From Escherichia phage vB_EcoS_XY2: a stretch of DNA of 44,138 bases. A program made the position numbers and the translations under genes. Positions 1 to 44,138 of this stretch are shown piece after piece. Each line of letters begins with the position of its first letter. Within the stretch, counting starts at the first letter, position 1. The DNA is taken from sequence record MN927226.1. The stretch is one strand, 5' to 3'. The notes under the pieces were generated by a model. The model had not been told where the DNA came from. It ran no database searches and saw only the letters and a program-made list of their open reading frames with translations.

Positions 1-40
1 TCTGGCAGGCCCCACGCTTTTACCTCATATCTCTGTACCA

Positions 41-223
41 TTACTCCACCCCTTCCACATGTGTAACTGACCCACAGTTCGCGCACTCGACGTAATCAGG
101 GTACTGGTCTTTGTATTTCTGTAGCTCAGCTTCAAGTTTCGCGTAATCTTCGTAAAGCACTAACACGCCCTCAACATCAGGAGTAAACCCGAATATCTGG
201 TCGTAGGTATATCTCTGCACCAT
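41..223 (-). CDS. small early protein (60 aa), tandem paralog of CDS 43783..44052
   Basis: ORF MVQRY...CANCGSVTHVEGVE; AGGAGA RBS before ATG at 223; last 87 nt identical to 3' end of 43783..44052; stop overlaps next ATG (TAATG). Confidence 0.6.
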   Translation of the reverse strand: MVQRYTYDQIFGFTPDVEGVLVLYEDYAKLEAELQKYKDQYPDYVECANCGSVTHVEGVE

Positions 224-225
224 AA

Positions 226-429
226 TCACTTCTCCTGTTTACCAAGTCGCTTAGGTGAGCAGATAGCGCGTACCTCTGAATCGTTTGGCTTGTCGCCCTG
301 AAACAGGAAGTGCGCGTTCTCTGCGGCGCGTGCAGCTGACTGGCACGCCTCCATCGAGTAAAACGTTTCTGATGCCGCGAGTTGCATCTGGCCCGCGGAC
401 AGTACCCAGATAAATAAGATGCTGGTCAT
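226..429 (-). CDS. hypothetical protein (67 aa) with hydrophobic N-terminus
   Basis: ORF track; ATGA overlap with stop of 426..974. Confidence 0.5.
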   Translation of the reverse strand: MTSILFIWVLSAGQMQLAASETFYSMEACQSAARAAENAHFLFQGDKPNDSEVRAICSPKRLGKQEK

Positions 430-974
430 TTCAGTTTAGCCCCGCAATCAAGACACTTTTTAGTAAAACCCGGCGCAAAGCCTTTGCGCAAACCGACGGT
501 ATTAGCGTGTTGGCAATCGCTCAATTCCGATTCTTGCTTACCGCATTTAGCGCAAATGAAGTAGTCCCCTTTTTCATCTAGCACCCAATCATGCTCGCAT
601 TCCTGGGTATCCTCTTTACAGCAACCGGATTGCTCCTGTTTGCGGATAAGTTTGTACGCTTCCGCGTCACCCGTAGCCCGAACCAGCGCCAGATGCAAAT
701 CCTTAATCTGCGACGAAGCATCACGTAACTGGTTTTTAAGTGACTGCACCTCATGCGCCAGGTCTTCGCACTGCTGCTTGTGCGGGTTGTGCTGGTTGTG
801 CTCCAGGCCGATGTAAGCGTCGATTACGGCGTTTTCTTCATCGGTATAGTTACCGCGACCCGCGATACTACGGTCAATACTCCACCGTTTGATTTCACCC
901 ATTACATCCGCGACTGGTAGCTGCTGCCGTAGTTGGTCAATCAGGTACTCGAATACTTCGTTTTTGTTACTCAT
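426..974 (-). CDS. hypothetical Cys-rich early protein (182 aa)
   Basis: ORF track; GAGAGGAGAG RBS before ATG; C-terminal CxxC pairs (CAKCG, CLDCG). Confidence 0.7.
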   Translation of the reverse strand: MSNKNEVFEYLIDQLRQQLPVADVMGEIKRWSIDRSIAGRGNYTDEENAVIDAYIGLEHNQHNPHKQQCEDLAHEVQSLKNQLRDASSQIKDLHLALVRATGDAEAYKLIRKQEQSGCCKEDTQECEHDWVLDEKGDYFICAKCGKQESELSDCQHANTVGLRKGFAPGFTKKCLDCGAKLK

Positions 975-2426: not shown

Positions 2427-2460
2427 AACCACCACTCCTCTGTCTCGTTTCGATAAGTGA

Positions 2461-2489
2461 ATAGTATCCTATTATATTGGGGTGTGCAA
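2461..2489 (-). promoter_or_regulatory. early promoter TTGCAC-N17-TACTAT (leftward operon)
   Basis: Reverse complement cttgcacaccccaatataataggatactattcac; near-identical to modules at 25334 and 34320. Confidence 0.5.
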
Positions 2490-6027: not shown

Positions 6028-6091
6028 GTCAATTACTCCTTAGTCAGTTGATATGTGAATAGTACCATATTAATTATTTTAGAAAAGCCCA

Positions 6092-6120
6092 TTGACATGT
6101 GAATAGTTCGCTATTATAGT
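6092..6120 (+). promoter_or_regulatory. sigma70 promoter TTGACA-N17-TATAGT with GAATAG-N4-CTATTA dyad in spacer
   Basis: Consensus -35, 17-bp spacer; dyad 6101-6116; second degenerate box 6057-6072. Confidence 0.6.
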
Positions 6121-6151
6121 TAACCCATACCAAACGAGAGGAGAGAAACAA

Positions 6152-6695: not shown

Positions 6696-6974
6696 ATGAT
6701 TTACCAACTCTACCGCGCCGTAGACAGGCGGGATAACACAGAGGCGTTGTGGCTGTTGCGTGCGCCGTCCGGTGCACACCAGATGGAAGAGATGGCGTAC
6801 TTAGGCAAAGTACCGCGTCCTAAAGATATAGGTCGTCACGTGTCGCGGATTAAACGCACGACATTCGCCAAGCCCGACTTTTATGTCTTCGAGTCGATGT
6901 ATGGATGGGCCTTACATTGCGACCACAAGACACGGCATTTAATTGACCAGTGGGAGAGCAGAGCATGGTTTTAA
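6696..6974 (+). CDS. hypothetical protein (92 aa)
   Basis: ORF track; GGAGGGG RBS. Confidence 0.6.
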   Translation: MIYQLYRAVDRRDNTEALWLLRAPSGAHQMEEMAYLGKVPRPKDIGRHVSRIKRTTFAKPDFYVFESMYGWALHCDHKTRHLIDQWESRAWF

Positions 6975-8206
6975 AGGAACGCGGCGGAAATAACGATGTA
7001 CACGCCTTACTGTCGCCGTCTGGGGCTAAAAAGTGGCTTAGCTGCGCGGCATCACTGGCCTGTGAAAAAGATATTCCTAACACGTCAGGTAAAGCTGCGG
7101 TATTAGGCACAGCAATGCACACCATAGCTGAGATGCACCTTAACCAGTACATCAAAGGTACTGCGCTGCCGTTAGAGCGCGAAGTAGGCGCTTACGTGCT
7201 GGATGAGGGTAAAGGCCAGATTAAGGCGCTAATCAGTCCGATGAAAGGTGCTGTACTGATTACGGCGGATATGATTGAGCAGGTGCGCAAGTACACCGAC
7301 TACTGCAAAGCGATTATAGATGTAGCGACTTACGCCAAGCTGGAAATGCGCGTCAATCTTACTGAGGTATTGCATCCGGGGTATGAAGGCGTTGAGACGT
7401 TCGGAACCGCTGACATTGTTGCCGTTCAGGAACTGGCTAACACCGATGAGCACATGCTAATCATCGGCGACCTTAAAACCGGGCGACATCGTGTCGAAGC
7501 GAAAGAAAACAAGCAGCTTATGCTTTACGCTCTCGGTGTTTATCGCCGACTCAAGAGACGTTATAACATAACAGTTGTTCGTCTGGTAATCTTCCAGCCG
7601 TACACTGGCGGCGCGTCGGAGTGGGACATCTCGGTTGAAGGCCTTGAACTGTTCACTAAGTTCGCACAGAAACGCGCGCTGTTAGCTATCGATGCGTATT
7701 TCCGTGGGAAGAAGAACCTGAAAGCGTCGGACTTCAAGCCGTCGGTCGATGGTTGTCAGTGGTGTCGGTTCTCAGAACAGTGCGCCGCGCGTACAAAAAC
7801 CGTCAACTCTGTGCTGGCGGAAGAACTGGAGGACGATTTTGCGCTTGAGCTTACGCCAGAGCAACTCGTAGCTGAGTATGAGAAGTTGCCGCTGTTGCGC
7901 CAGCACATCGACAAGGTTGAGAAAGCTATGGCCGTCGCATTGCATTCCGGTAAGAAGGTGCCGGGGTACAAGCTGGTTGAAGGACGCCAGGGTAATCGTG
8001 CGTGGAAAGACGCAGAGAAAGTAGCAGAACTCTACGGCGACAAGCTGACTAAAGAAGTGCTCATGTCACCTACCGAAGCTGTTAAAGTGATACCGGAAGA
8101 AGAACTGAAAGACTTCATCACACGTAAGCCGGGTGCACCATGTGTTGCAACGGCAGACGACAAGCGTCCTGAGTGGGATCAGGTAACAGAGGAGGATTTG
8201 GAATGA
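6965..8206 (+). CDS. PD-(D/E)XK nuclease, DUF2800/Cas4-like, with C-terminal Cys cluster
   Basis: GDLKTGRHRVEAKENKQLMLYALGVY nuclease core and CQWCRFSEQC; ATG at 6965 after GGGAGAG. Confidence 0.7.
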   Translation: MVLKERGGNNDVHALLSPSGAKKWLSCAASLACEKDIPNTSGKAAVLGTAMHTIAEMHLNQYIKGTALPLEREVGAYVLDEGKGQIKALISPMKGAVLITADMIEQVRKYTDYCKAIIDVATYAKLEMRVNLTEVLHPGYEGVETFGTADIVAVQELANTDEHMLIIGDLKTGRHRVEAKENKQLMLYALGVYRRLKRRYNITVVRLVIFQPYTGGASEWDISVEGLELFTKFAQKRALLAIDAYFRGKKNLKASDFKPSVDGCQWCRFSEQCAARTKTVNSVLAEELEDDFALELTPEQLVAEYEKLPLLRQHIDKVEKAMAVALHSGKKVPGYKLVEGRQGNRAWKDAEKVAELYGDKLTKEVLMSPTEAVKVIPEEELKDFITRKPGAPCVATADDKRPEWDQVTEEDLE

Positions 8207-8380: not shown

Positions 8381-8409
8381 TTGACACCTGAATAGTTAGC
8401 TATTATAGT
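8381..8409 (+). promoter_or_regulatory. sigma70 promoter TTGACA-N17-TATAGT with GAATAG-N4-CTATTA dyad
   Basis: Same architecture as 6092-6120; upstream of CDS 8464. Confidence 0.6.
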
Positions 8410-8463
8410 TCTAATCACTGACCGGGCAGCTTCCCGGAGTAAACTGAAAAGCGAGAAATCACG

Positions 8464-9090
8464 ATGGGTATTAAACTGAATCTGCGTAAAGTAAACACTG
8501 CATGGGTTAACGTATTTGAACGTGAAAAAGACCGTGAAAACGATGATGGCTCAATCACTAAAGGCCAGTACAGCGCGACTATCATCCTGCCGTATGACCA
8601 TGCTCAAATCGATGCACTCTACGGCACCGTTTACGCTGTAGTTGAAGAAGCGTTAGGCGCAGCCGCTGCCGAGAAATGGATGAAGTCCAACTACGGTGAA
8701 GGTAAGCACATGGATAAATGCGCGATTAAAGACATTGCCGAGCGCGACAATCCGTTTGAAGACTTCCCGGAAGGCTTCTACTTCAAAGCGAAGGCACAGA
8801 AACAGCCGCTGATTGTAACCTCTAAAAAAGGTGAGACTCAGGTAGAGCAGGACTTCAACGTAGACGGCGAACAGATTGAAGGTGAACAGGTTTACAGCGG
8901 ATGCTTAGCTAACGTAAGCGTTGAAATCTGGTTCAGCCAGAAATACAAAGTCCTCGGCGTTAACCTGCTGGCGATTAAATACGTTGGCGAAGGCAAAGCG
9001 TTCGGCGGTTCTAAAGTCGCTGCGAGCGTCAATGACCTGGAAGACGACGAAGAAGATGAAGCACCGCGCCGCGAACGTCGCCGCCGCTAA
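8464..9090 (+). CDS. DUF2815-like putative ssDNA-binding protein
   Basis: ORF track; sits between DUF2800 nuclease and DNA polymerase; acidic tail DLEDDEEDE. Confidence 0.55.
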   Translation: MGIKLNLRKVNTAWVNVFEREKDRENDDGSITKGQYSATIILPYDHAQIDALYGTVYAVVEEALGAAAAEKWMKSNYGEGKHMDKCAIKDIAERDNPFEDFPEGFYFKAKAQKQPLIVTSKKGETQVEQDFNVDGEQIEGEQVYSGCLANVSVEIWFSQKYKVLGVNLLAIKYVGEGKAFGGSKVAASVNDLEDDEEDEAPRRERRRR

Positions 9091-12230: not shown

Positions 12231-12559
12231 CTAAAGAGGGCCGCATCCAGAAATACGCAAAAGAGCGATTCGAGGCCATTGGTGGCCTCGTTCGTAAACT
12301 TTCCTACGAAGGACGTTCAGGCGCTCCTGACCTGCTGGCAATTCTACCCGGCGGCATCGTCTGGTTCGTCGAGGTGAAGAAAGACGAAAACACTAAGCCA
12401 GACCCGCACCAGCTACGGGAACACGAGCGTATACGTAAACGTGGCGCAAATGTTTTTGTCGTTGGTTCGATAAAACAGATTGACACCCTAATAGCAGACT
12501 ATTATAGTAAGCACATACCCCAACAATATAAGGAATTTAGAAATGAAACACGAATATGA
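12227..12559 (+). CDS. VRR-NUC domain nuclease
   Basis: GAPDLLAILPGGIVWFVEVKK core read as VRR-NUC. Confidence 0.7.
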   Translation: MTKEGRIQKYAKERFEAIGGLVRKLSYEGRSGAPDLLAILPGGIVWFVEVKKDENTKPDPHQLREHERIRKRGANVFVVGSIKQIDTLIADYYSKHIPQQYKEFRNETRI

Positions 12560-15079: not shown

Positions 15080-15083
15080 AGAA

Positions 15084-15103
15084 AAGGCCCCAAACGGGGC
15101 CTT
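15084..15103. terminator. bidirectional terminator AAGGCCCC-aaac-GGGGCCTT
   Basis: Perfect 8-bp stem between converging plus module and tailspike gene. Confidence 0.7.
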
Positions 15104-25226: not shown

Positions 25227-25333
25227 TCTTTAATCCTTTGGTTAAGAGGTTACAGGTTAAGGTTAATGCGCCAGACGGGAACCACCCGCTTTTCGTGTGC
25301 GACACTAGGCGCAAACTTATTCTAACACACTAC

Positions 25334-25362
25334 TTGCGCGCCCCAATATAATAGGGTACTAT
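25334..25362 (+). promoter_or_regulatory. early-type promoter TTGCGC-N17-TACTAT for plus-strand island
   Basis: ttgcgcgccccaatataatagggtactattca; near-identical to 34320-34350. Confidence 0.55.
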
Positions 25363-25390
25363 TCACCAGTAACTTACTGAGGGTATAATT

Positions 25391-27140: not shown

Positions 27141-27143
27141 GAA

Positions 27144-27165
27144 AAAGGCCCCTTTCGGGGCCTTT
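27144..27165. terminator. bidirectional terminator AAAGGCCCC-tttc-GGGGCCTTT
   Basis: Perfect 9-bp stem between island end and major tail gene stop. Confidence 0.7.
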
Positions 27166-34319: not shown

Positions 34320-34348
34320 TTGCGCACCCCAATATAATAGGGTACTAT
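34320..34348 (+). promoter_or_regulatory. early-type promoter TTGCGC-N17-TACTAT for DnaN-like gene
   Basis: ttgcgcaccccaatataatagggtactatcca; near-identical to 25334-25364. Confidence 0.55.
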
Positions 34349-34375
34349 CCAGTTAACTTAAACAGGAGATGAGAA

Positions 34376-34897: not shown

Positions 34898-34901
34898 AAC
34901 T

Positions 34902-34921
34902 AAGGCCCCTTACGGGGCCTT
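34902..34921. terminator. bidirectional terminator AAGGCCCC-ttac-GGGGCCTT
   Basis: Perfect 8-bp stem right after stop of 34376..34897. Confidence 0.7.
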
Positions 34922-36462: not shown

Positions 36463-36498
36463 ACTATAAGAAAGCCCCTTTCGGGGCTATAGGTGAAC

Positions 36499-43052: not shown

Positions 43053-43493
43053 TTATCCTAATAGTTGTTTGGTAATAATCTTGCCGCCGGTGTCAGGGTC
43101 GAACTTCGATGCAACTGCTACACCACCTTGCGCCGAATACCCACATTCCATAGCCGCTAGGGCATAAGGGGCGCCTGAACCAACGGCGGAAAAGCTGTCC
43201 GCAATCTGAATAACCAAACTAAGAGCACAATCCCAAGATTTATAGAACTCCACCCTACACAACGTTTCGATGTCTTTAACCCACACCAAGGCAGAGAAAT
43301 CAAAATCGTAGTGCTTAGGCACTAAAATACTATCGTCCTCCACTAAAAGGATACCAACCCCTGCATCGCCAGCCGCCCCAATAACAACAAATTCGTTCTC
43401 GTATATCTTTGTGTCTGTGTTGTAACTGTTACTCCCGCACACAACACGGGTATCACAGGCCATTGTCTTTCCGTCAAACGCGATAGTAGTCAT
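43053..43493 (-). CDS. HslV/proteasome-beta-like Ntn-hydrolase peptidase homolog (146 aa)
   Basis: N-terminal Met-Thr-Thr; AVGSGAPYALAA matches recalled HslV AIGSGGPYAQAA; ATGA coupling. Confidence 0.65.
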   Translation of the reverse strand: MTTIAFDGKTMACDTRVVCGSNSYNTDTKIYENEFVVIGAAGDAGVGILLVEDDSILVPKHYDFDFSALVWVKDIETLCRVEFYKSWDCALSLVIQIADSFSAVGSGAPYALAAMECGYSAQGGVAVASKFDPDTGGKIITKQLLG

Positions 43494-43783
43494 TTATGTC
43501 TCCAGATGTATTGTCGTCTCTGTGGTTTCGTCGGAATATCATCGTACCCCAGCGATTTCCAGTAATTAAATAGCCGGTTCGCGATAGCTGCGCGTTCCTT
43601 TGTTTTAAACTCACCGAGATTCACTGCCTTTCCGTTCTGGAATCCACAGGCGCGGATAGCTTTACGCCGTTCTTGTATCTCTGGGTACAGCACGTTACGG
43701 CGACGCTTGTGTATACGTGTCTTCGCTCTCGGTGACAGCGGCGCAAGGCCGCTTCGTTTCAGGATGTCAGTTGCTAACGACAT
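43490..43783 (-). CDS. basic hypothetical protein (97 aa)
   Basis: ATG 43783 overlaps stop of upstream paralog (TAATG). Confidence 0.55.
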   Translation of the reverse strand: MSLATDILKRSGLAPLSPRAKTRIHKRRRNVLYPEIQERRKAIRACGFQNGKAVNLGEFKTKERAAIANRLFNYWKSLGYDDIPTKPQRRQYIWRHK

Positions 43784-43869
43784 TACTCCACCCCTTCCAC
43801 ATGTGTAACTGACCCACAGTTCGCGCACTCGACGTAATCAGGGTACTGGTCTTTGTATTTCTGTAGCTC
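43781..43869. repeat. 89-bp direct repeat, copy 2 (copy 1 at 39..127)
   Basis: Exact 89-nt identity read directly; covers 3' end of a paralog plus start codon of next gene. Confidence 0.9.
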
Positions 43870-44052
43870 GGCGTTTACTTCTGCCAGTCTCGACACAAGC
43901 CCTTCTATTTCCTTGTCGGCGTCGGCTAGACGTTCCTGGTAATAGTCGTCCAGTTCCTTATAGCTGTCGTACTCTACATAATCGCCGTATGCGTACTCAG
44001 CCATCTCAGGCTCTGGCAGGCCCCACGCTTTTACCTCATATCTCTGTACCAT
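43783..44052 (-). CDS. small early protein (89 aa), tandem paralog of CDS 41..223
   Basis: MVQRYEVKAWGL...CANCGSVTHVEGVE; shares N-terminal MVQRY and identical C-terminal 29 aa with the 41..223 product. Confidence 0.6.
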   Translation of the reverse strand: MVQRYEVKAWGLPEPEMAEYAYGDYVEYDSYKELDDYYQERLADADKEIEGLVSRLAEVNAELQKYKDQYPDYVECANCGSVTHVEGVE

Positions 44053-44138
44053 TACTCCACCCCTTCCACATGTGTAACTGACCCACAGTTCGCGCACTCG
44101 ACGTAATCAGGGTACTGGTCTTTGTATTTCTGTAGCTC
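44012..44138. repeat. 127-bp terminal redundancy identical to positions 1..127
   Basis: Exact identity of window ends; runs through coding sequence. Confidence 0.95.

What the first reader, a model, noticed from the sequence alone, without database searches (positions are those of the whole stretch)
43781..44138. Tandem small-gene paralogs sharing an identical 89-bp junction module
CDS 41..223 and CDS 43783..44052 are adjacent on the circular map. They share the N-terminal MVQRY and an identical C-terminal 29 aa encoded by identical nucleotides, while their middles are unrelated. The 89-bp identity (39-127 and 43781-43869) spans the C-terminal coding part, the stop and the overlapping start of the next gene. 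Perfect nucleotide identity beside diverged middles suggests recent gene conversion or cassette exchange.
Basis: seen in the sequence. Interest (0 to 1): 0.5.

Follow-up and report, generated by a model that had tools for sequence, protein, structure and literature searches.

The report
Recombining small-gene array in a coliphage
Two neighbouring small phage genes of unknown function share a perfectly identical 89-base tail because recombination has recently made the two copies alike, at a spot where related phages constantly reshuffle such gene pieces; this is an ordinary, well-known way for phage genomes to evolve, shown here very clearly.

Summary
Window 39-127 and 43781-43869 are identical over exactly 89 nt. 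The third copy, 44050-44138, is only the 127-nt overlap of a circular assembly (unique circle 44,011 bp). The window is a Kagunavirus, an E. coli siphovirus. On the minus strand the repeat encodes the last 28 codons, the stop and the overlapping ATG of tandem genes A (60 aa) and B (89 aa).

In 40 related loci anchored on a flanking gene, the same site holds 0-3 genes of this "MVQRY" family. At least 19 N-terminal and 6 C-terminal modules occur in many combinations.

Seven other arrays with two copies of this module differ at 7-10 of 89 sites; the window differs at 0. Against L083, the only other A-B array found, 8 of 10 differences over 1,182 nt fall in the repeats. At each of those 8 sites the window carries the state of L083's other copy.

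This is the signature of gene conversion or homologous exchange at a shared gene-boundary module. Protein function remains unknown. This is a new example of a known kind, of modest interest.

The parts
39..127 (-). Repeat copy 1. C-terminal module C1 of gene A (28 codons), TAA stop, and overlapping ATG of gene B.
   Evidence: Exact 89-nt identity with 43781-43869; translation.
43781..43869 (-). Repeat copy 2. C-terminal module C1 of gene B, TAA stop, and overlapping ATG of the conserved 97-aa gene C.
   Evidence: A TAA stop is atypical for a copy that precedes gene C (1 of 26 elsewhere).
1..127 (.). Terminal overlap of the circular assembly, identical to 44012-44138. It contains repeat copy 1 plus the first 38 nt of gene B.
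   Evidence: Exact 127-nt identity of the window ends. Relatives are contiguous across this point.
44012..44138 (.). The same terminal overlap at the other end of the window. It is not a third genomic copy.
41..223 (-). Gene A, 60 aa, made of modules N1 + C1. Its exact protein occurs in many independent assemblies, mostly as the only family gene.
   Evidence: Full-length match to phrog_29624, unknown function.
128..223 (-). N1 cassette, the specific 5' part of gene A (96 nt).
   Evidence: 100% nt identity to 11 independent loci whose C1 differs at 2-5 sites.
43783..44052 (-). Gene B, 89 aa, made of modules N2 + coiled-coil middle + C1. On the unique circle it spans 43783-44011 plus 1-41.
   Evidence: Structure model with pLDDT 84: beta sheet, 42-residue helix, CxxC hairpin.
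43870..44049 (-). N2 + middle cassette, the specific 5' part of gene B (180 nt).
   Evidence: 99.4-100% nt identity to 13 loci. Its first 87 nt are 96.5-100% identical to the 5' part of the 64-aa N2-C2 genes of relatives.
39..61 (-). Junction motif CATGTGGAAGGGGTGGAGTAATG: codons H-V-E-G-V-E, a G-rich Shine-Dalgarno-like run, and the stop/start overlap. A second copy lies at 43781-43803.
   Evidence: Only these two sites in the window. 57 such junctions occur in 49 related loci, joining C1 to gene C, to family genes or to other genes.
226..429 (-). Conserved 67-aa gene (MTSILFIW...), the upstream anchor of the array.
   Evidence: phrog_3766.
43490..43783 (-). Conserved 97-aa gene C (MSLATDILK...), the downstream anchor of the array.
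   Evidence: phrog_9632.
8464..9090 (+). Homologue of the gene annotated in Bas73 as a Gp2.5-like ssDNA-binding and annealing protein. Candidate phage recombination function.
   Evidence: 91.5% nt identity to Bas73_0044. Role inferred from annotation only.
6965..8206 (+). Homologue of the Bas73 exonuclease gene. Candidate partner of the annealing protein.
   Evidence: 85.8% nt identity to Bas73_0046. Role inferred from annotation only.

Best explanation
The window is a Kagunavirus genome assembled as a circle. Between a conserved 67-aa gene and a conserved 97-aa gene lies a recombination hot spot. It holds a variable array of small paralogous 'MVQRY' genes built from interchangeable N-terminal, middle and C-terminal modules.

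The 89-bp repeat is the commonest C-terminal module (C1) together with the gene junction. That junction contains the last codons (HVEGVE), a G-rich ribosome-binding-like run, and the stop/start overlap TAATG. Because this stretch is shared by neighbouring genes and by most relatives, it serves as a patch of homology. At that patch, homologous recombination swaps cassettes between co-infecting genomes and copies sequence between the two tandem copies.

In this genome the two copies, about 9% diverged in comparable arrays, have recently been made identical by such conversion or exchange. The result is a hybrid allele: the 5' part is of the type linked to B or to lone A genes, and the 3' part, including the TAA stop, is of the type that precedes an N2 gene.

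Shown: the repeat, the array diversity, the clustering of differences in the repeats, and the reuse of pre-existing states.

Inferred: the recombination mechanism itself; the involvement of the phage's own annealing protein and exonuclease; whether the exchange was within one genome or between co-infecting genomes; and what the proteins do. My guess is that they are dispensable accessory proteins with a variable target-binding N-terminal domain and a dimerising helix.
For: - Exact 89-nt repeat and 127-nt assembly overlap.
- Kagunavirus identity.
- Array of 0, 1, 2 or 3 family genes in 9, 17, 12 and 2 of 40 loci anchored on gene C. At least 19 N-module clusters and at least 6 C-module types, with the same N-module on different C-modules.
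- Each cassette exists separately in independent assemblies.
- N1 and N2+middle are 99.4-100% identical to loci whose C1 differs at 1-5 sites, so C1 changes by exchange and not by clock-like divergence.
- Seven other two-copy arrays differ at 7-10 of 89 sites between copies, always at 269-bp spacing; the window differs at 0. None of 804 between-locus pairs in different contexts is identical.
- Against L083, 10 differences in 1,182 nt: 8 in the two repeats (binomial P = 9e-6). All 8 are states of L083's other copy.
- The TAA stop is associated with copies preceding N2 genes (9 of 15, against 1 of 26 before gene C; P = 1e-4), yet it is present in the window's copy before gene C.
- The junction motif joins different partners in 57 junctions and is grafted onto foreign modules in L021 and L008.
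- The window carries homologues of the annealing protein, exonuclease and Holliday-junction resolvase annotated in Bas73.
- Phage recombinases are documented to recombine short and diverged sequences (PMC3945230). Boundary-sequence exchange is documented with an analogous shared C-terminal tail in mycobacteriophage Island3 gp67/gp68 (PMC3029335).
Against: - No reads are available, so the copy number and the identity of the copies rest on one assembly.
- The end of the assembly overlap coincides exactly with the end of the repeat. This hints that the assembly graph branched there.
- The exact 89-nt allele and both exact junctions are absent from IMG/VR and the JGI metagenome contigs. No GenBank phage has the A-B array. 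The homogenised state is therefore seen only once.
- Nearly identical alleles exist on single-copy genomes (L088 differs at 1 site, L075 at 2). The array could therefore have been assembled from parents that already had near-identical modules.
- The direction and number of conversion events cannot be resolved from 8-9 informative sites.
- Protein function is entirely unknown.
Confidence: 0.75

Rival explanations
1. Cassette assembly without intragenomic conversion. The A-B array arose by one crossover in the shared N2 sequence between an A + N2-C2 genome (like L075 or L018) and a B-bearing genome (like L088). The parents' C1 modules happened to be already identical, so the identity is inherited and was not produced in this genome.
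For: Such parents exist. L075 has A followed by an N2-type gene, with a C1 that differs from the window's at 2 sites. L088 has B followed by gene C, with a C1 that differs at 1 site and has the TAA stop. N2 is 96.5-100% identical between B and the 64-aa genes, giving 87 nt of homology for the crossover.
Against: No sampled pair of copies in different contexts is identical (0 of 804). L088's own TAA stop before gene C is itself best explained by an earlier transfer from an upstream-type copy. This rival therefore moves the conversion into an ancestor and does not remove it.
Confidence: 0.15
2. Assembly artefact. The genome really has one family gene or two diverged copies, and the assembler or a consensus step created the duplicated identical module, possibly from a mixture of strains.
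For: The window is a short-read-style circular contig with a 127-nt overlap whose end falls exactly on the repeat boundary. That is what a branch in the assembly graph at the repeat would leave behind. The exact allele is found nowhere else.
Against: The repeat (89 nt) is shorter than the overlap (127 nt), so every copy is read together with unique flanks. The contig itself contains N1-R-N2 and middle-R-geneC contiguously. L083 independently shows the same A-B-C architecture. NTEC3, 590B and L080-L086 show tandem C1-bearing genes at the same 269-bp spacing. Copies diverged as in L083 share no exact stretch longer than about 25 nt, so they could not be collapsed into a hybrid.
Confidence: 0.06
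3. The identity reflects selection on the nucleotide sequence itself, for example an RNA structure, a regulatory site, or an overlapping reading frame, and not recombination.
For: The junction does carry translation signals (Shine-Dalgarno-like run, stop/start overlap). An alternative-frame ORF across C1 is open in several relatives.
Against: Variation among 36 alleles is mainly at third codon positions (16 of 28 variable sites) and synonymous (107 against 53), as for ordinary coding sequence. The transcript folds no better than shuffled controls (z = +1.2 and +1.3). Other two-copy arrays tolerate 7-10 differences.
Confidence: 0.03

Closest known systems
Boundary (linker) sequence-mediated modular exchange in phages. 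This is the modular-evolution idea as summarised in Pope et al. 2011, PMC3029335. That paper also gives the specific example of mycobacteriophage Island3 gp67/gp68, which share only their C-terminal 18 residues and the underlying nucleotides.
   Same: A short conserved stretch at a gene boundary is flanked by non-homologous cassettes. Tandem small genes share only their 3' ends. Insertion or deletion of a whole gene is explained by general recombination at that stretch.
   Different: Here the boundary module is longer (89 nt), is a complete protein module plus translation signals, and is used by dozens of combinations across more than 80 loci. The copies in this genome have been fully homogenised.
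Gene conversion (concerted evolution) of tandem paralogues.
   Same: The identical tract is bounded by diverged paralogous sequence. Comparable arrays in relatives keep diverged copies. Converted sites use states already present in the other copy.
   Different: The tract is very short and includes the intergenic junction. In a lytic phage, exchange between co-infecting genomes cannot be told apart from intragenomic conversion.
Relaxed homologous recombination by phage-encoded single-strand-annealing recombinases (De Paepe et al. 2014, PMC3945230).
   Same: Exchanges occur at short or diverged homology during lytic growth, and the phage encodes an annealing protein plus an exonuclease.
   Different: That work tested Rad52-like recombinases of temperate phages. 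Here the candidate is a Gp2.5-like protein known only from annotation, and nothing was tested.
Lar restriction-alleviation protein family (Pfam PF14354).
   Same: Small phage or prophage protein with a CxxC knuckle; weak profile match over the C1 module.
   Different: The score is far below the family threshold (13-14 bits against 28.6). There is only one CxxC, and no functional evidence. Not a member.

Membership tests
Gene conversion between tandem paralogues | Two paralogous copies in one genome, with an identical tract bounded by diverged sequence | tested here: met
   89 of 89 identical. The flanks drop to chance level on one side and to 34% aa identity on the other.
Gene conversion between tandem paralogues | Comparable arrays in relatives retain diverged copies | tested here: met
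   Seven arrays differ at 7-10 of 89 sites between copies. L083 has the same A-B-C order with 8 differences.
Gene conversion between tandem paralogues | Differences from a close relative cluster in the tract and reuse states of the other copy | tested here: met
   8 of 10 differences over 1,182 nt lie in the repeats (P = 9e-6). All 8 equal L083's other copy.
Gene conversion between tandem paralogues | The event occurred within this genome, not between genomes | not testable with these tools
   Needs population or time-series reads. L088 and L075 show that near-identical alleles circulate.
Boundary-sequence modular exchange in phages | The same short conserved sequence at a gene boundary is joined to different neighbours in different genomes | tested here: met
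   57 junctions in 49 loci: 28 to gene C, about 25 to family genes, and a few to other genes. The motif is grafted onto a C4 module (L021) and onto the upstream large gene (L008).
Boundary-sequence modular exchange in phages | Mosaic breakpoints coincide with the conserved sequence | tested here: met
   Cassettes are 99.4-100% identical while the adjoining C1 differs. State switches occur inside C1.
Boundary-sequence modular exchange in phages | Dependence on general or phage-encoded recombination enzymes | not testable with these tools
   Only the presence of homologues of the annotated annealing protein, exonuclease and resolvase was shown.
Assembly overlap of a circular contig (applies to 1-127 / 44012-44138 only) | Exact identity of the two contig ends, with relatives contiguous across the join | tested here: met
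   127 of 127 identical. NTEC3, 590B and L083 are contiguous across the equivalent point. The Bas73 record is circular.
Programmed DNA rearrangement (shufflon, invertible cassette, diversity-generating retroelement) | Inverted repeats or template/variable repeat pairs, with an adjacent site-specific recombinase or reverse transcriptase | tested here: not met
   The repeats are direct. The neighbouring ORFs are small genes, an HslV-like peptidase and lysis genes. No such enzyme is annotated in the closest relative.
Lar restriction-alleviation family (PF14354) | Score at or above the Pfam gathering threshold | tested here: not met
   14.2 and 13.3 bits against a cut-off of 28.6.

The most novel reading that the evidence does not exclude
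The MVQRY array may be a natural combinatorial cassette system. Its hypervariable N-terminal domains (residues about 6-22) would recognise different host or defence targets. Its gene junction (C-terminal codons, ribosome-binding site, stop/start overlap, MVQRY codons) would have been retained because it lets co-infecting Kagunaviruses swap, add and delete such cassettes in frame. On this reading the 269-bp unit varies in copy number within populations, and the graph branch implied by the contig end would be its trace.
Probability: 0.15. Interest if true: 0.55.

Novelty: new member of a known kind. Interest (0 to 1): 0.3.

Why it matters
This is a clean, quantifiable natural example of how phages shuffle small accessory genes at a shared gene-boundary sequence, and of concerted evolution over a tract of only 89 nt. 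It marks a hypervariable site in Kagunavirus. That genus is used as a compact chassis for phage engineering (PMC11990801) and for therapy candidates.

The site tolerates 0-3 genes, so it is probably dispensable and a natural insertion point. The family itself has 419 clusters and no known function. With its hypervariable N-terminus it is a reasonable candidate for host-interaction or counter-defence screening.

It also carries a practical warning: circular contigs can be cut exactly at such repeats, and terminal overlaps can be mistaken for extra copies.

Tried and rejected
- Pfam and PHROGs scans of A, B and their neighbours gave no function. The only hits were phrog_29624, 3766 and 9632 (all 'unknown') and sub-threshold matches to Lar, scaffold protein and prefoldin.
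- Structure prediction of B followed by Foldseek gave nothing against PDB. Against BFVD it returned only uncharacterised family members.
- Exact-match searches for the 89-nt allele and for both junctions in IMG/VR and the JGI metagenome contigs found nothing.
- No GenBank phage has the A-B array.
- The RNA-structure explanation was rejected: z = +1.2 and +1.3.
- Nucleotide-level selection or dual coding was rejected on the codon-position pattern.
- De novo tandem duplication in this genome was rejected. The two cassettes are only 34% identical, and each exists separately at 100% nt identity in other genomes.
- A programmed rearrangement system was rejected: the repeats are direct and no recombinase or reverse transcriptase is present.
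- I first thought the 'QYPDY' variant was specific to B. This was wrong: A with QYPDY is common as a lone gene.
- Literature searches found no description of this locus in Kagunavirus.

Full report
WHAT IS IN THE SEQUENCE

The window's first 127 nt are identical to its last 127 nt. This is the overlap left by circular assembly, so the unique genome is a 44,011-bp circle. Within it, window 39-127 (seen again at 44050-44138) and 43781-43869 are identical over exactly 89 nt, with no extension on either side.

All genes here are on the minus strand. The transcription order is:
- a 182-aa gene (426..974);
- a conserved 67-aa gene (226..429);
- gene A (41..223, 60 aa);
- gene B (43783..44052, 89 aa, crossing the join);
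- a conserved 97-aa gene C (43490..43783);
- an HslV-like peptidase (43053..43493);
- holins and endolysin.

The 89 nt read GAG...GAG TAA TG. That is 28 codons (ELQKYKDQYPDYVECANCGSVTHVEGVE), the stop, and the rest of the next gene's ATG. The last codons, GAA GGG GTG GAG, also form a G-rich Shine-Dalgarno-like run just upstream of that ATG (read directly from the sequence). The copy at the window's end is the assembly overlap, not a third copy.

WHAT THE GENOME IS

The window is a Kagunavirus (Guernseyvirinae), a small E. coli siphovirus. Its best match is phage Bas73, at about 95% identity over the tail genes. In Bas73 the locus lies in an operon of small hypothetical genes that leads into the lysis cassette.

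THE LOCUS IN RELATIVES

I collected 63 IMG/VR loci through gene C, 5 GenBank loci, and 20 loci from ENA, Logan, NCBI and JGI assemblies that encode exactly protein A or exactly protein B.

Between the 67-aa gene and gene C, relatives carry 0, 1, 2 or 3 genes of one family. The counts are 9, 17, 12 and 2 of 40 loci anchored on gene C. All family genes start MVQRY or a close variant.

The family alignment shows, in order:
- an invariant start;
- a hypervariable stretch at about residues 6-22;
- a conserved G-D-[YW]-V-x-Y-x-D-Y-K-E-L-D motif;
- an optional coiled-coil middle;
- one of at least six alternative C-terminal modules.

C1, the module in the repeat, is the commonest C-terminal module (27 of 47 genes). 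The same N-module occurs with different C-modules:
- MVQRYLLQGG... occurs with middle+C1, with C4 and with C5.
- N2, which is B's N-terminus, occurs with C2 in Snoke, Bas71, L018 and L075, and with middle+C1 in B.
- B's first 87 nt are 96.5-100% identical to those 64-aa N2-C2 genes.

Every piece of the window's array exists separately:
- A alone followed by gene C: L015, L069-L074, L076-L078, and the phages DUEC01 and SHAK7858.
- B alone followed by gene C: L006, L079, L081, L087, L088.
- A followed by an N2-C2 gene: L018, L075.
- N3-C1 followed by B: L080, L082, L084, L086, NTEC3, 590B.
- A-type followed by B and then gene C, as in the window: only L083.

A and B are also homologous throughout. 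Their non-shared N-terminal parts are 34% identical, and P0110 combines A's N-module with B's middle. 'Unrelated middles' is therefore too strong.

WHY THE TWO COPIES ARE IDENTICAL

C1 is conserved everywhere, with 1-13 differences per 89 nt from the window's allele. The question is whether 0 differences is special. It is, for five reasons.

1. The seven other arrays with two C1 copies, always 269 bp apart, have 7-10 differences between copies. None of 804 between-locus pairs in different contexts is identical.

2. The cassette-specific parts are 99.4-100% identical to many loci: N1 (96 nt) to 11 loci and N2+middle (180 nt) to 13 loci. Yet the C1 of those same loci differs from the window's at 1-5 sites, mostly synonymous or in the stop codon. 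The shared module thus changes faster than its unique neighbours. Exchange explains this; clock-like divergence does not.

3. Against L083, the stretch from the start of A to the end of the HslV-like gene (1,182 nt) has 10 differences. Four are in copy 1, four in copy 2, and two elsewhere. The chance that 8 or more of 10 fall in 178 nt is 9e-6.

4. At all eight sites the window's base is the one found in L083's other copy. These are module positions 18, 26, 30 and 74 in copy 1 and positions 54, 60, 75 and 86 in copy 2. No new mutation is needed.

5. Position 86 makes the stop TAA. Excluding the window, TAA occurs in 9 of 15 copies that precede an N2-type gene but in only 1 of 26 that precede gene C (P = 1e-4). 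The window's copy before gene C has TAA, so its 3' end looks copied from the upstream copy.

Together these are the standard marks of gene conversion or repeated homologous exchange between the copies.

The direction for the 5' half is ambiguous. The states A18, A26 and T30 are also the usual ones in lone A genes, so L083's upstream copy, and not the window's, may be the one that changed there. Near-identical alleles on single-copy genomes (L088 at 1 difference, L075 at 2) mean that part of the homogenisation may predate the assembly of this array. This is the second-ranked explanation. It shifts the exchange to an ancestor and does not remove it.

THE JUNCTION AS A SHARED LINKER

The 23-nt junction motif occurs only at the two repeat copies in the window. 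It occurs at 57 gene boundaries in 49 related loci. It joins C1 to gene C 28 times, to family genes about 25 times, and to other genes a few times.

It is also found grafted onto a foreign C-terminal module (L021...LKLAEIVEHVEGVE) and onto the end of the large upstream gene (L008...CDNCGSVTHVEGVE).

[quoted passage not shown] It closely parallels mycobacteriophage Island3 gp67/gp68, which share only their C-terminal 18 residues and the underlying nucleotides (PMC3029335).

Phage annealing recombinases are known to recombine short and diverged sequences efficiently during lytic growth (PMC3945230). The window carries homologues of the genes annotated in Bas73 as a Gp2.5-like annealing protein, an exonuclease and a Holliday-junction resolvase. 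Their involvement here is inference only.

RIVALS CONSIDERED

Assembly artefact:
- The repeat (89 nt) is shorter than the overlap (127 nt).
- The contig contains both junction contexts contiguously.
- L083 independently shows the same gene order.
- Copies diverged as in L083 share no long exact stretch that could be collapsed.
- However, the end of the overlap falls exactly on the end of the repeat. That is unlikely by chance. It is what a branch in the assembly graph would leave, for example from reads joining middle-R-N2 out of a duplication variant, a co-occurring strain or a library chimera. This is inference and needs the reads.

Nucleotide-level selection:
- Variation is mostly third-position and synonymous.
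- The RNA folds no better than shuffled sequence.

De novo duplication: the cassettes are old and separately distributed.

Programmed rearrangement: the repeats are direct, and no recombinase or reverse transcriptase is present.

WHAT THE PROTEINS ARE

The function is unknown.
- Pfam gives nothing above threshold. The Lar match is 13-14 bits against a cut-off of 28.6.
- PHROGs places A in phrog_29624, 'unknown function'.
- The family has 419 clusters at 90% identity, almost all on ~44-kb contigs.
- The AlphaFold model of B (pLDDT 84) has a small N-terminal beta sheet, one 42-residue helix, and a C-terminal beta hairpin carrying C76, C79 and H84.
- Fold searches return only uncharacterised family members.

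My working guess, at low confidence, is a dispensable accessory protein with a variable target-binding head and a dimerising helix. It rests on the hypervariable N-terminus, the presence/absence pattern, and the position among small genes of unknown function upstream of the lysis genes.

VERDICT

This is a new, unusually clear example of a known process: modular exchange and concerted evolution at a conserved gene boundary in a lytic phage. No new kind of system is involved. Interest is modest.

Noticed in passing
window 1-127 and 44012-44138: The inner end of the 127-nt assembly overlap coincides exactly with the end of the 89-bp repeat (position 127/128). This suggests the assembly graph branched at the repeat, through copy-number variants, a co-occurring strain or chimeric reads.
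   Followed up: partly
window 2450-2479, 6048-6077, 6092-6121, 8381-8410, 12480-12509 (+); 25333-25366 and 34320-34355 (-): A family of about 30-nt promoter-like elements (TTGACA..GAATAGT....CTATTATAGT) is repeated seven times, at the heads of gene blocks.
   Followed up: no
window 15081-15100, 27142-27161, 34899-34918, 36468-36487: Repeated GGCCCC-loop-GGGGCC hairpins that look like intrinsic terminators.
   Followed up: no
window 426-974 (-); L002, L004, L005, L008, L013, L028: The upstream 182-aa gene is itself mosaic among relatives. It ranges from 115 to 259 aa and carries interchangeable Cys/His zinc-ribbon-like C-terminal modules. In L008 it ends with the tail of C1. In 590B it is fused to the 67-aa gene. 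An HNH homing endonuclease sits next to it in NTEC3, L083 and L086.
   Followed up: partly
window 43053-43493 (-): The HslV-like peptidase gene between gene C and the holins is present in some close relatives and absent in others, for example L069-L074 and L088.
   Followed up: no
L036 2202-2504; L042 1048-1380: In two relatives the C1 stop is replaced (GAG GAC ...). The gene then reads on into a zinc-ribbon-like extension that resembles the C-terminus of the upstream 182-aa family.
   Followed up: no
window 25-135 (-): An alternative-frame ORF of 36 aa (..SSARTVGQLHMWKGWSNGTEI) runs across C1 and the junction. It is also open in L005, L020, L022 and L032. It is probably spurious, given the codon-position pattern.
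   Followed up: partly
L088 1684-1772: A genome with only B carries a C1 allele 1 nt from the window's, including the TAA stop otherwise typical of upstream copies. This suggests it descends from, or exchanged with, a two-copy array.
   Followed up: partly
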